From: a virus
Length of the DNA stretch: 28,290 nt
Direction: 5' to 3' (one strand)
Virus genome (UHGV): UHGV-0284664
A program made the position numbers. Of this stretch, positions 9,001 through 12,000 are shown in pieces. The number at the start of each line of letters is the position of its first letter. Positions within the stretch are counted from its first letter, which is position 1.

Positions 9001-12000
9001 AGCAGAGCAATAAAACCTGGTCCCTGATGCATCCGGTGGATGACGCAGTCTCCCTGCTGACACGGGGTGGCAGACTGAGCTGTAAGTTTCGACTGTCAGG
9101 CGCACTGACCAACAACCAGTTCGGTCTGGGAATTTATCTGTATACCGATGTAGCGTTACCTGACGTCGTGGCGATGACCGGGACTGGTAACCCGTTCCTG
9201 ATGTCGTTCTTCACCCAGACCACAGACGGCAAACTGAATCTGATGCATCACAGGAAAGCAGGAAACACAAAGTTGGGCGAGTTCGGGAATTACAGTAACG
9301 ACTGGCAGACGCTGGAGCTGGTGTTCACCGCCGGCAGTGCCACGGTTACTCCGAAACTGAATGGAGTGGCTGGCCCGGCATTCCAGGTCATAAAAGACAG
9401 TCTGACACTGGGGCTGAATGCGCTGACGCTGACGGATATTACCAAAAATGCAGCGTATGGCGTTGAGATAGAAAGTCTGGTGCTGGAGATAAATGCACCA
9501 GCATCATCATAAAAAGTGAGCCAGTCAAATGGAAGGTATCGTTAAACTCACCGGTAGTGTCAGTGGGTCGTCTGAGATGCCTGCATGAGTTATCAGAGCC
9601 ATCAGTACTTAACTGGTGGCTTTTTTTATTGTTGTCAGCTTCCGGATAACGGGAGATGGGGTATGTACCAGATGGAAAAAATCACAACAGGTGTGTCATA
9701 CACCACGTCAGCGGTGGGAACGGGCTACTGGTTCCTGCAGTTGCTGGACAGGGTTTCCCCGTCTCAGTGGGCGGCAATAGGCGTGCTGGGGAGTCTGCTG
9801 TTTGGGCTGCTGACATATCTGACTAACCTGTATTTCAAAATCAGAGAGGACCGTCGTAAGGCGGCACGGGGAGAGTAATTCAATGACTCAAAACTATGAA
9901 CTGATTGTGAAAGGGATCCGCAATTTTGAGAATAAAGTTACGGTAACTTTAGCGTTACGGGACAAAAAACGCTTTGACGGTGAAATTTTTGACCTGGACA
10001 TCTCGCTGGACCGTGTTGAAGGTGCCGCGCTGGAGTTTTATGAGGCAGCAGCCAGAAGGAGCATCAGACAGGTCTTCCTGGATGTTGCTGCCGGGTTATG
10101 TGAAGGGGATGAGCAGTCGCCGGAAAAGCGCCCCGTAATTTTAGAGGCGCAGAATGTATGGATAACCTACAAAGGAAAGCTACCGGGAATAATTACTGGT
10201 TCTCTGAAGACTCCTCCGGAATCACAACCTTAAGTCACTGACCGGAACAGATAAACCTGTCCGTGGGCAGAAACCGATAAATCCTGATAAATATCCATGA
10301 ACACCAAAATCAAATACGGCCTGTCGGCTGCCGTTCTGGCGCTGATTGCCGCTGGTGCGCCTGCGCCTGACATTCTCGACCAGTTTCTGGATGAAAAGGA
10401 AGGTAACCACACCACGGCATACCGTGATGGCGCGGGTATCTGGACCATCTGCCGCGGTGCCATCCTGGTGGATGGCAAACCTGTCGTTCCGGGCATGAAG
10501 TTGTCGAAGGAAAAATGCGACCGGGTTAACGCCATTGAGCGTGATAAGGCGCTGGCATGGGTGGAGAAAAACATCAGAGTGCCATTGAGTGAACCCCAGA
10601 AAGCGGGGATCGCGTCATTCTGTCCGTACAACATTGGCCCCGGTAAGTGTTTTCCGTCGACGTTTTATAAACGAATTAATGCAGGTGATCGCAGGGGAGC
10701 GTGTGAGGCGATTCGCTGGTGGATTAAGGACGGTGGCAGGGACTGCCGTATTCGCTCAAATAACTGTTACGGTCAGGTATCCCGTCGTGACCAGGAGAGC
10801 GCGCTGGCGTGCTGGGGAATCGACAGATAAGCAGAATATTTTGCTAATAAATGACGTTGGTCAAGGCGGACGGATAACACGAAATCCTGCGAACTGGCAA
10901 AATGTAAGTGAATAAAAGTAAAAACCCCGTTTGTTGGCAGCAAGCGGGGTTTTGTTTTTATGGCAGTAAGCTATGGGAGGCTGCCTTGATTGATTTTAGC
11001 AAACTGATTAGGGAGTTGCGACTCATGATTAGTCAATTACCAAACTGGAAATTTTTGCTGGTCTGGAGCATCCCTTTTTTATGGGTAGTATCCCAGTTAA
11101 TTGTGGCAATTAAGGGGTAGCTATGTCAGACAAACTCATAACGCCGGCAAAGGTCCTGTGTGTGATTGTCGGTATTTCATTTTCACTAATGCTGGTTGCT
11201 CTTTTTCTGTCCCTCGCCTGGGTGATGTTGTCTTCGTCGGGGCTGCTGGGGTGACAGTGACTGATGACATCAGCAGAGCGCTGGCTTTTGCTATTAAGTG
11301 GGTGGCTGTTGGTATTGCTGTGTCTCCGATGCTGTATGGGCTGGCAAAACTGGTCATTGCGCTGAAATCGTGAACTTTAAAAAGATGAGTGCTGAACTTA
11401 TTCGGGCAATGGCATTTGCCATTCGTATTGTGGCCATTGCTGTTCTGGTCTGGGCAATCCGTTGGTGGTGATATGAACCGTGTTCTGTGTGTGGTGATTA
11501 TTGTCCTGCTGGTAGCCTGTGGTGTGCTTAGTCTGGGGCTGAATCATTACCGCGATAACGCCATCACCTACAAAGCGCAGCGCGATAAAAAAGTCAGTGA
11601 GCTGAAACTGGCGAATGCCACTATTACTGACATGCAGCAGCGCCAGCGAGATGTCGCTGCGCTTGATGCCAGATACACGAAGGAATTAGCCGATGCGAGA
11701 GCTGAAAATGAAACTCTGCGCGCTGATGTTGCCGCTGGTCGTAAGCGCCTGCGGGTCAACGCCACCTGCCCCGGTACCGTGCGTGAAGCCACCGGCACCT
11801 CCAGCGTGGATAATGCAACCGGCCCCCGACTGGCAGACACCGCTGAACGGGATTATTTCATCCTCAGAGAACGGTTGATGACAATGCAGAAGCAGTTGGA
11901 AGGGGCGCAGGAATATATCCGCACTCAGTGCACTAAGCTGGCTTTTTATTATCCGGAGGATACATGAAGAAATTACGGGTAACCGTAGAACCTTTTCAGG

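What the first reader, a model, noticed from the sequence alone, without database searches (positions are those of the whole stretch)
10921..11471. Terminator followed by a run of tiny hydrophobic ORFs between endolysin and spanin genes
Seen in sequence: a strong hairpin with T-run at 10921-10959, then four short ORFs predicted to encode single hydrophobic helices of 28-43 aa (11025-11120, 11123-11254, 11251-11373, 11385-11471). Two have good SD sequences, two share an AFAI(K/R)-hydrophobic motif, and the last ends 1 nt before Rz. Lambda and phage 21 have no genes here as I recall them. Inference: small membrane peptides that could modulate holin or spanin function or act as membrane-active toxins; they could also be non-coding spacer that happens to be open.
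Basis: partly seen in the sequence, partly recalled or inferred. Interest (0 to 1): 0.5.

Follow-up and report, generated by a model that had tools for sequence, protein, structure and literature searches.

The report
Small membrane-protein genes between endolysin and spanin
The four tiny open reading frames between the cell-wall-cutting enzyme gene and the outer-membrane-disrupting gene of this E. coli prophage are real, conserved genes for one-helix membrane proteins; they travel with an upstream terminator hairpin and sit at this same junction in several unrelated phage lysis gene sets, but their function is unknown.

Summary
A strong terminator hairpin (10921-10959) is followed by four abutting same-strand small ORFs that end 1 nt before Rz. 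Their being open is only marginally unusual (27/1000 shuffles), so the case rests on comparison with relatives. The ORFs fall into three families: ORF1 (phrog_6632; true start probably TTG 10986, 44 aa), ORF2 (phrog_4906) and ORF3/ORF4. ORF3 and ORF4 are paralogues with a RAxAFAI(K/R) motif (phrog_3246/4493) and are 5'-shortened copies of 60- and 50-aa genes. All three families show purifying selection in the proposed frame only (omega 0.10-0.45; other frames about 0.6-3.5). The E. coli versus Salmonella dN/dS for the ORF3 family is 0.20. An ORF2 homologue gave a weak Ribo-seq signal in O157:H7 Sakai (XECs191). The module "terminator + small membrane gene" also lies after the endolysin, and just upstream of a spanin or lipoprotein gene, in cassettes built from non-homologous holins, endolysins and spanins (Salmonella, Enterobacter, another E. 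coli type). Most likely these are accessory inner-membrane proteins of the late lysis operon, translationally coupled to Rz. No function has been shown. RefSeq already annotates them as hypothetical proteins. The exact arrangement occurs in 589 of 5426 complete E. coli genomes.

The parts
9663..9878 (+). S21-type pinholin gene (context). It has the dual-start MYQM motif.
   Evidence: PF04971 E = 9e-33; phrog_9876/phrog_20 holin.
10297..10830 (+). Lysozyme R with an N-terminal SAR-type hydrophobic segment (context; upstream boundary of the variable slot).
   Evidence: PF00959 E = 1.3e-23; N-terminal sequence MNTKIKYGLSAAVLALIAAGA.
10831..10920 (+). Conserved leader after the R stop codon. It contains a small hairpin, GGAT-AACACGAA-ATCC, at 10872-10887.
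   Evidence: The first ~85 nt are nearly the same in all interval classes. The hairpin recurs in Salmonella with a longer stem, GGCGGAT...ATCCGCC. It is part of the predicted fold.
10921..10959 (+). Intrinsic-terminator hairpin with an A-run before and a T-run after. It forms the upstream end of the mobile module.
   Evidence: 15-pair stem. Of 45 unique variants, 44 fold at -12 to -23 kcal/mol and one at -7.0, and some carry compensatory stem changes. The same hairpin precedes the small gene in Salmonella, Enterobacter and an M15-endolysin cassette. A non-homologous hairpin replaces it in the ant-containing classes.
10986..11120 (+). ORF1, 44 aa, TTG start. It has an N-terminal amphipathic DFSKLIRELR segment plus one transmembrane (TM) helix.
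   Evidence: phrog_6632 E = 1.3e-12. The 44-45-aa family is found in Escherichia, Salmonella, Enterobacter, Providencia, Trabulsiella and Cronobacter. SD GGGAGG, -10.2 kcal/mol. The sister form ORF1b has omega 0.12, P = 2e-4.
11123..11254 (+). ORF2, 43 aa, one TM helix, ATG start with an AAGGGG SD.
   Evidence: phrog_4906 E = 4.5e-21. 103 protein clusters; every one that carries an organism name is E. coli. Omega 0.45, P = 1.2e-4, against 0.83 and 1.08 in the other frames. A homologue, XECs191, was detected by Ribo-seq in Sakai. It is annotated as EDL933_1392 directly before an Rz-like protein (EDL933_1393) in EDL933.
11251..11373 (+). ORF3, 40 aa from GTG 11251 (which overlaps the ORF2 stop) or 38 aa from GTG 11257. 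It is a 5'-shortened copy of the 60-aa MEKYKRILLRL...RALAFAIKW... gene.
   Evidence: phrog_3246/1115/4493. The full-length form has omega 0.20, P = 1.5e-7. E. coli versus Salmonella dN/dS is 0.20. The start codon is uncertain: PGAP uses CTG 11218 and a phage record uses GTG 11257.
11385..11471 (+). ORF4, 28 aa, a paralogue of ORF3. It is a 5'-shortened copy of the 50-aa (M/V)RKYKRFFLRL...[21 protein letters not shown] gene. Its last codons, CGT TGG TGG TGA, form the Rz ribosome-binding site.
   Evidence: phrog_4493 E = 3.8e-6. Alignment A1 shows the invariant motif R-A-x-A-F-A-I. The full-length form has omega 0.10, P = 3e-16, and the short form 0.41, P = 0.03. There is no SD.
11473..11967 (+). 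Rz i-spanin gene (downstream boundary). Rz1 is embedded at 11693-11878.
   Evidence: PF03245 E = 4.4e-51. The Rz1 ORF has a lipobox-like LVVSAC sequence.

Best explanation
The four ORFs are genuine genes for small single-pass inner-membrane proteins. They belong to three families: ORF1, ORF2, and the ORF3/ORF4 paralogues. They occupy a hypervariable slot between the endolysin gene and the i-spanin gene Rz. They form a mobile module made of a conserved leader, an intrinsic terminator hairpin, an SD sequence and one or more small membrane genes. The last gene of the module ends inside the ribosome-binding site of the next lysis gene. Inferred mechanism: there is no promoter of their own, so they are transcribed only as part of the late lysis operon. 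In the late operon, Q-modified polymerase reads through the hairpin, which otherwise insulates them and Rz from stray upstream transcription. The ORFs are translated in series, with ribosomes handed on to Rz. The peptides insert with the N-terminus in the cytoplasm and act as non-essential accessory factors that tune a membrane step of lysis between wall degradation and spanin action. Shown: the genes are real, are under protein-level constraint, and are conserved in position. Inferred: the timing of expression, the topology and the lysis role.
For: Coding. Substitutions counted along minimum spanning trees of the alleles (a crude stand-in for a phylogeny) are biased toward synonymous changes in the proposed frame only. 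ORF4 full-length family: 40.5 synonymous versus 12.5 nonsynonymous, omega 0.10, P = 3e-16. ORF3 family: omega 0.20, P = 1.5e-7. ORF1b: 0.12, P = 2e-4. ORF2: 0.45, P = 1.2e-4. The other two frames give about 0.6-3.5. E. coli versus Salmonella dN/dS for the ORF3 family is 0.20, against 1.3 and 2.4 in the other frames. The families span several genera. There is weak Ribo-seq support for an ORF2 homologue: RPKM 12.6, coverage 0.55. Lysis association. In 118 unique R-Rz intervals, at least 102 have a small TM ORF stopping within -4 to +2 nt of the Rz ATG. Of the loci retrieved through the small proteins with full flanks, all 48 (A1 scan) and all 61 (A3 scan) have R upstream and Rz downstream; 45 of 67 do in the A2 scan. 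The one locus examined among the other 22 (L300) is a different lysis cassette. The same module lies after the endolysin, and just before a spanin or lipoprotein gene, in non-homologous cassettes. These are Salmonella with an HP1-type holin, a 36%-identical lysozyme and Rz; Enterobacter with a phrog_217 holin, a soluble GH19 endolysin and phrog_1026/1275 spanins; and E. coli with phrog_198/217 holins, an M15-type endolysin and a 60-aa lipoprotein. At least two further small TM ORFs (X1, X2), which show at most weak similarity to the three families, occupy the same slot in one interval class. No + strand promoter-like site lies between the terminator and Rz.
Against: No experiment links any of these proteins to lysis. 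Many lambdoid and other cassettes lack them altogether. Some alleles are frameshifted or carry stop codons beside R and Rz genes that still match full-length. Any role is therefore dispensable. In this window ORF3 and ORF4 lack the N-terminal third of their full-length relatives and have weak or no SD sequences, so these two copies may be poorly expressed remnants. The exact four-ORF arrangement is nearly clonal, at least 99.6% identical in the full-length hits sampled, so selection cannot be measured on this arrangement itself. Constraint on ORF2 is modest. The same slot also accepts unrelated cargo such as ant and methyltransferase genes, so position alone could simply reflect a permissive insertion site.
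Confidence: 0.5

Rival explanations
1. They are lysogenic-conversion or superinfection-exclusion morons. On this view the small membrane proteins are made in the lysogen and benefit the host or block incoming phage, and their position next to the lysis genes is incidental.
For: The slot is a cargo site: ant and DNA methyltransferase genes are inserted there in other prophages. The ORF2 homologue XECs191 gave signal in cultures that were not deliberately induced. Small inner-membrane exclusion proteins exist in lambdoid phages, for example HK97 gp15 (my own knowledge).
Against: No promoter-like site lies between the terminator and the ORFs. The terminator is upstream of the genes rather than downstream, and the ORFs run without a break into Rz. 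The Ribo-seq signal is low (RPKM 12.6) and could come from spontaneously induced cells. There are no matches to defence-system models.
Confidence: 0.2
2. They are translational-coupling relays. Upstream translation is needed only to open the Rz ribosome-binding site after DNA was inserted between R and Rz, and the peptides themselves do nothing.
For: Whatever ORF is last stops within a few nt of the Rz ATG. The C-terminal codons (R-W-W-stop or G-stop) double as the Rz SD. Where there is no insert, R itself overlaps Rz.
Against: Amino-acid sequences are under purifying selection along their whole length, not only at the 3' end. The small ORFs all encode one hydrophobic helix. ORF1 and ORF2 lie 350 and 220 nt upstream of Rz, so they are not needed for coupling. 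In Enterobacter the spanin gene has its own SD 22 nt after the small gene.
Confidence: 0.12
3. They are type I toxin-like or abortive-infection peptides: small hydrophobic membrane-damaging toxins held in check by an antisense RNA.
For: Their size and hydrophobicity resemble type I toxins. The hairpin has runs on both sides and could terminate transcription from either strand. A weak - strand promoter-like site lies at 11129-11100.
Against: That site matches only 9 of 12 positions, and the number of such sites is at chance level (3 found, 3.3 expected). No Rfam family reaches threshold; the best match is the ohsC antitoxin RNA at 21.6 bits against a gathering score of 50. There are no PADLOC hits. 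Four tandem coupled genes inside a late operon is not the layout of a toxin-antitoxin locus.
Confidence: 0.05
4. It is a non-coding spacer whose frames are open by chance.
For: Openness alone is only marginally unusual (27/1000 shuffles). ORF4 has no SD.
Against: Substitution is frame-specific and biased toward synonymous changes in every family. The proteins are conserved across genera, and one homologue has Ribo-seq support.
Confidence: 0.03

Closest known systems
PHROG families phrog_6632, phrog_4906, phrog_3246/1115/4493, and RefSeq hypothetical proteins WP_001280935.1, WP_042004856.1, WP_032140280.1, WP_001043230.1
   Same: These are the same genes. The window ORFs match these profiles, and RefSeq annotates them at these positions in identical DNA.
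   Different: All are labelled unknown function or hypothetical. The annotated starts disagree: a 70-aa version of ORF1 spans the terminator, and a 51-aa version of ORF3 starts at CTG. Neither fits the conserved family lengths.
XECs191 (Huecker et al. 2017, PMC5597208) and EDL933_1392
   Same: This is a homologue of ORF2, 65% identical, placed directly upstream of Rz in O157:H7 prophages. It was reported as a translated novel small gene with one predicted TM helix in the inner membrane.
   Different: It is a different allele class, lying downstream of an ant insertion. The support is low-level Ribo-seq in non-induced cultures, and no function was assigned.
Phage P2 LysA (my own knowledge; no sequence was compared here)
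   Same: It is a membrane protein gene placed between the endolysin gene K and the Rz-like lysB gene. It is non-essential and affects lysis timing.
   Different: LysA is much larger and has several TM segments. No homology was tested.
Phage Mu gp25 releasin, DUF2730 (Chamblee et al. 2022, PMC9239132)
   Same: It is a small membrane-tethered accessory protein of a lysis cassette with an N-terminal TM domain, and it acts on a SAR endolysin.
   Different: No Pfam match of any kind was found, so none to DUF2730. The proteins here have almost no cytoplasmic domain. ORF1 relatives also accompany a soluble GH19 endolysin, so a SAR-specific role does not fit. In Mu the gene lies after the spanin genes (my own knowledge).
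Antiholins and holin modulators (S21-71, lambda S107, Salmonella phage BSPM4 ORF52, PMC11657625)
   Same: These are small membrane proteins encoded in or near lysis cassettes that tune holin triggering.
   Different: There are no holin-family matches. The only sequence hint is a resemblance of the ORF3 helix to S21 TM helix 2 (score 36, z = 4.2, P = 0.004 uncorrected across about 60 comparisons), which is not significant after correction.

Membership tests
PHROG small-protein families (6632; 4906; 3246/1115/4493) | A significant match to the family profile over most of its length. | tested here: met
   ORF1 E = 1.3e-12 (profile positions 2-43 of 45). ORF2 E = 4.5e-21 (7-49 of 49). ORF3 E = 1.9e-27 (40-90 of 90). 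ORF4 E = 3.8e-6 (24-54 of 56).
Holin / antiholin | A match to a holin family profile (Pfam Phage_holin_* or PHROG holin). | tested here: not met
   No Pfam, NCBIfam or PHROG holin match for any of the four ORFs at E <= 1.
Holin / antiholin | Controls the timing of membrane permeabilisation. | not testable with these tools
   This needs lysis curves of mutants.
Releasin (Mu gp25, DUF2730) | DUF2730 domain: an N-terminal TM helix plus a cytoplasmic domain. | tested here: not met
   No Pfam hit. The proteins are 28-44 aa with little sequence outside the helix.
Spanin (i-, o- or u-spanin) | A periplasmic coiled-coil domain after a TM helix (i-spanin), or a lipobox lipoprotein (o- or u-spanin). | tested here: not met
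   No spanin PHROG or Pfam match. There is no lipobox and no periplasmic domain in the translations.
Moron (Juhala et al. 2000 sense) | Present in some related phages and absent in others, as an insertion into an operon. | tested here: met
   The R-Rz interval ranges from 0 to 1898 nt, with many combinations of content. It is absent in K-12 Qin.
Moron (Juhala et al. 2000 sense) | An own promoter upstream and a terminator downstream, giving independent expression. | tested here: not met
   No + strand promoter-like site lies between 10960 and 11473. The terminator lies upstream and there is none before Rz. A consensus scan cannot exclude weak or non-sigma-70 promoters.
Type I toxin-antitoxin | A small hydrophobic toxin peptide. 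| tested here: met
   28-44 aa, each with one hydrophobic helix.
Type I toxin-antitoxin | A cognate antisense or divergent small RNA and an own promoter. | tested here: inconclusive
   No Rfam family reaches threshold. The single - strand promoter-like site is at chance level. No transcript data were available.
Anti-phage defence systems (PADLOC) | A match to a defence-protein model. | tested here: not met
   No hits for the four ORFs or their full-length relatives at E <= 1.

The most novel reading that the evidence does not exclude
A mobile mini-cassette (leader, terminator hairpin, one small single-helix membrane gene) has repeatedly settled at the endolysin-spanin junction of lysis cassettes built from non-homologous parts across Enterobacteriaceae. 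On this reading its products are a previously unrecognised class of lysis accessory proteins. They might gate or time spanin action, or couple it to endolysin release, and the hairpin would keep them and the spanins silent unless the polymerase is antiterminated.
Probability: 0.3. Interest if true: 0.7.

Novelty: new variant of a known kind. Interest (0 to 1): 0.5.

Why it matters
Lysis of Gram-negative hosts is usually described with three players: holin, endolysin and spanin. A few regulators are known (antiholins, P2 LysA, Mu releasin). These small genes are very common: part of the region matches 2078 of 5426 complete E. coli genomes, and the exact arrangement is in 589, including ST131, EPEC O127:H6 and O55:H7 strains. 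Relatives lie next to the spanin gene in O157:H7 prophages. If they tune lysis, they would affect the timing of phage release, and in Shiga-toxin phages the timing of toxin release as well. Their short length makes them easy to test. The start-codon corrections would also improve annotation of thousands of genomes.

Tried and rejected
(1) A genome-contig scan with the 51-aa ORF3 translation gave 600 pattern matches but none was confirmed. The degenerate patterns were probably saturated by chance hits.

(2) A single 43-aa protein is too short for the search for related loci, so I used alignments instead.

(3) I tested whether the small ORFs are duplicated 5' ends of Rz, because ORF2 KVLCVIVG resembles Rz RVLCVVII. 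The alignment scores are not above shuffles (z = 1.4, P = 0.11), so the idea was rejected.

(4) I considered an antisense RNA running from a - strand promoter-like site at 11129-11100 to the two-sided hairpin. The site matches 9 of 12 positions and such sites occur at chance frequency, so there is no support.

(5) I looked for a known small RNA in the R-Rz gap. No Rfam family reaches threshold. The published prophage anti-sRNAs and Pas sRNAs map near PR'/stx and between the esterase and holin genes, not here.

(6) Pfam, NCBIfam and PADLOC gave nothing for the small ORFs.

(7) Peptide-string and accession searches of the paper library found no main-text hits. Only supplements of two O157:H7 translatome papers contain the ORF2 homologue. 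One preprint on UPEC small proteins could not be opened.

(8) I tried to measure selection within the exact four-ORF arrangement. The copies are at least 99.6% identical, so this is uninformative.

(9) Structure prediction and the 1.84-billion-protein profile search were not run. Single 28-44-aa helices would give no discriminating fold, and that library has no names or context.
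Full report
**What is in the window**

The window is an E. coli lambdoid prophage of the Shiga-toxin-phage type. It has three tRNAs, two STnc100 copies and a sialate esterase gene upstream of the lysis genes. The lysis cassette consists of these parts:

- an S21-type pinholin at 9663-9878;
- a DUF1327/YdfR gene at 9883-10233;
- a lysozyme R at 10297-10830 with an N-terminal signal-anchor-release (SAR) type hydrophobic segment;
- a 642-nt interval;
- Rz at 11473-11967, with Rz1 embedded.

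ORF4 stops one base before the Rz ATG.

**Is it more than chance?**

Openness alone is weak evidence. The + strand ORF coverage of 10960-11475 is 0.94, against 0.69 +/- 0.16 in dinucleotide shuffles, and 27 of 1000 shuffles reach the observed value. I therefore tested the ORFs by comparison with relatives.

**A hypervariable slot**

In K-12 Qin the same cassette has rrrQ overlapping rzpQ with nothing between them. Lambda and most other genera also have R abutting Rz.

I collected E. coli prophage contigs from IMG/VR through Rz and through the small proteins themselves. They gave 118 unique R-Rz intervals, 0 to 1898 nt long. The same small ORFs recur in different orders and combinations:

- an ORF1-like gene alone (297-298 nt);
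- an ORF4-like gene alone (331-336 nt);
- ORF3 then ORF4 (438 nt);
- ORF3 then ORF2 (478-492 nt);
- the window's ORF1-2-3-4 (642 nt);
- versions with an ant or methyltransferase gene added;
- one class with two further small membrane ORFs (X1, X2).

**Families and gene models**

- *ORF1.* It matches phrog_6632. Relatives in Escherichia, Salmonella, Enterobacter, Providencia, Trabulsiella and Cronobacter are 44-45 aa and share M-x-D-F-S-K-L-I-R-E-L-R...W-K-F-L-L-x-W. In the window this fits a TTG start at 10986 behind a GGGAGG Shine-Dalgarno (SD) sequence (-10.2 kcal/mol), not the ATG at 11025.
- *ORF2.* It matches phrog_4906. I found 103 protein clusters; every one that carries an organism name is E. 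coli.
- *ORF3 and ORF4.* They are paralogues with an invariant R-A-x-A-F-A-I-(K/R) motif. Full-length relatives are 60 aa (MEKYKRILLRLTMKNGLELKAP + the ORF3 sequence) and 50 aa ((M/V)RKYKRFFLRLSIMKGIEVE... + the ORF4 sequence). The family also occurs in E. marmotae and Salmonella.

The window copies of ORF3 and ORF4 lack the basic N-terminal third. ORF3 has a weak SD and a GTG start that overlaps the ORF2 stop. ORF4 has no SD. These two copies may be translated only by coupling, or poorly.

**Selection**

I counted substitutions along minimum spanning trees of the unique intact alleles. This is a crude stand-in for a phylogeny. P values are from a binomial test of nonsynonymous counts against the expected share of nonsynonymous sites.

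| Family | Synonymous / nonsynonymous | Omega | P |
|---|---|---|---|
| ORF4 full-length | 40.5 / 12.5 | 0.10 | 3e-16 |
| ORF3 full-length | 27 / 16 | 0.20 | 1.5e-7 |
| ORF1b | 9 / 4 | 0.12 | 2e-4 |
| ORF4 short form | 10 / 13 | 0.41 | 0.03 |
| ORF2, all alleles | 43.2 / 55.8 | 0.45 | 1.2e-4 |

In every case the two alternative frames give omega of about 0.6-3.5 and no significant deficit. This includes the 90-aa frame that some annotators call across ORF2 into ORF3. A Salmonella ORF3-family gene compared with E. coli alleles gives dN/dS 0.19-0.22, against 1.3 and 2.4 in the other frames.

Disrupted alleles exist but are a minority: 3 of 29 for ORF2, 1 of 20 for ORF3F, 2 of 13 for ORF4F and 2 of 11 for ORF1b.

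**Direct evidence of translation**

Huecker et al. 2017 list XECs191 (MMGWLMISDKLITLVKSLCVLVGISFLVMLVAIFFSTAWRVLTLSGLVG), an ORF2 homologue, as a translated novel gene in O157:H7 Sakai. In LB its transcriptome RPKM is 30.0, translatome RPKM 12.6, ribosome coverage value 0.43 and coverage 0.55, and it is predicted to be an inner-membrane protein. The signal is low and comes from non-induced cultures. The same protein is annotated as EDL933_1392, directly before an Rz-like protein (EDL933_1393) in EDL933.

**The module and its context**

About 85 nt after the R stop codon are conserved in all interval classes. They are followed by the hairpin. Of 45 unique hairpin variants, 44 fold at -12 to -23 kcal/mol and one at -7.0, and some carry compensatory stem changes. 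The ant-containing classes carry a different, non-homologous hairpin at the same place.

Whichever small ORF is last, it stops within -4 to +2 nt of the Rz ATG in at least 102 of 118 unique intervals. Its final codons (CGN TGG TGG TGA, or GGG GTG A) form the Rz SD.

The most telling result is that the same hairpin plus small gene occurs after the endolysin, and just upstream of a spanin or lipoprotein gene, in cassettes made of unrelated parts:

- *Salmonella.* An HP1-type holin, a lysozyme only 36% identical to R, the hairpin, an ORF3-family gene, then Rz.
- *Enterobacter.* A phrog_217 holin, a soluble GH19 endolysin, the hairpin, an ORF1-family gene, then i- and o-spanins of other families.
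- *A second E. coli cassette type.* phrog_198/217 holins, an M15-type endolysin, a 116-aa gene, the hairpin, an ORF4-family gene, then a 60-aa lipoprotein.

All loci retrieved through the ORF3-family (48/48) and ORF1-family (61/61) alignments with full flanks have R upstream and Rz downstream. For the ORF4-family alignment the figure is 45 of 67. I examined only one of the other 22 loci (L300); it is the M15-type cassette.

**Interpretation**

The genes are real and encode small single-helix membrane proteins. Their conserved placement across non-homologous cassettes, the lack of a promoter-like site and the tight packing into the Rz start point to expression with the late lysis genes. They suggest an accessory role at the membrane between wall degradation and spanin action. 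That role is inferred, not shown.

A SAR-endolysin-specific role like that of the Mu releasin is unlikely. ORF1 relatives accompany a soluble endolysin, and there is no DUF2730 match.

A resemblance between the ORF3 helix and S21 TM helix 2 (z = 4.2, P = 0.004 uncorrected) is only a lead.

The hairpin is most simply a terminator that Q-modified polymerase reads through. It could also serve as a recombination linker or an RNA-stability element. I could not distinguish these.

**Rivals**

- *Moron expressed in the lysogen.* This is not excluded, because the slot accepts other cargo and the Ribo-seq signal came from uninduced cells.
- *Pure coupling relay.* Selection acts on whole peptides, and ORF1 and ORF2 lie far from Rz, which argues against it.
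- *Toxin-antitoxin or defence.* There are no supporting matches.
- *Chance.* The selection data contradict it.

**Prevalence and novelty**

Part of the interval matches 2078 of 5426 complete E. coli genomes. The region with the four ORFs is at least 80% covered in 589 genomes, and the full-length hits sampled are at least 99.6% identical. They include ST131, O127:H6 and O55:H7 strains.

RefSeq already annotates three or four hypothetical proteins here, and PHROGs holds the families as unknown function. I found no paper in the held library that assigns a function or describes the terminator-plus-small-gene module at the endolysin-spanin junction.

The ORFs themselves are therefore known as annotations. 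The family structure, the evidence for selection, the corrected gene models and the cross-cassette positional conservation are the added value. The function remains open.

Noticed in passing
window 9513-9660 (hairpin at 9595-9623): A 12-pair terminator-like hairpin lies in the gap between the sialate esterase gene and the holin gene. A 2026 preprint places the prophage sRNAs PasA, PasC and PasD1 at this position. I did not compare the sequences.
   Followed up: partly
window 6431-6677, 6756-6946, 7224-7433: Three tRNA genes are followed by two copies of the STnc100 sRNA family (136 and 161 bits), upstream of the esterase gene. This is the region where Shiga-toxin phages carry stx. No toxin-sized ORF is evident there.
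   Followed up: no
window 10872-10887; L405 about 2860-2885: A small hairpin with a conserved loop, AACAC(G/A)AA, lies in the leader between the R stop codon and the terminator. The stem is GGAT/ATCC in E. coli and GGCGGAT/ATCCGCC in Salmonella. Its function is unknown.
   Followed up: partly
L026, L018 and L405 (upstream of the ORF4/ORF3-family GTG start); L300 1468-1509: In several classes the full-length ORF4-type gene starts at a GTG that overlaps the TGA stop of an 8-codon mini-ORF (MGREVLSL). The mini-ORF has a strong SD. This suggests translation by termination-reinitiation.
   Followed up: partly
L074, L076, L077, L079, R-Rz interval positions about 151-303 and 468-617: Two further small hydrophobic ORFs of 50 and 49 aa (X1: MQVKDNNKTF...; X2: MIKAETTSQG...) occupy the same slot in the 701-nt class. 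They show at most weak similarity to the three families.
   Followed up: partly
L119 2397-2504; L159 2310-2504; L405 about 2700-2810: Another small hydrophobic ORF type (…ICF..A..L...G..W.WF..VG…, about 31-35 aa) overlaps the end of the lysozyme gene. In two of the three loci it runs up to Rz.
   Followed up: no
window 11964-12188: A 74-aa ORF overlaps the Rz stop codon. It matches only the C-terminal part (positions 100-172 of 291) of phrog_2571 and is annotated as hypothetical protein WP_000736383.1. It may be a truncated gene.
   Followed up: no
window 10908-11120 and 11218-11373: Some database gene models here look wrong. A 70-aa model starts at GTG 10908 and reads through the terminator hairpin. 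A 51-aa model starts at CTG 11218 inside ORF2. Family lengths favour starts at 10986 and at 11251/11257.
   Followed up: yes
L300 1649-1831: A 60-aa lipoprotein-like ORF (…LVPFFLVGC…, phrog_7528, unknown function) directly follows the ORF4-family gene in an M15-endolysin cassette that shows no recognisable Rz. It could be an unrecognised outer-membrane lysis component.
   Followed up: no
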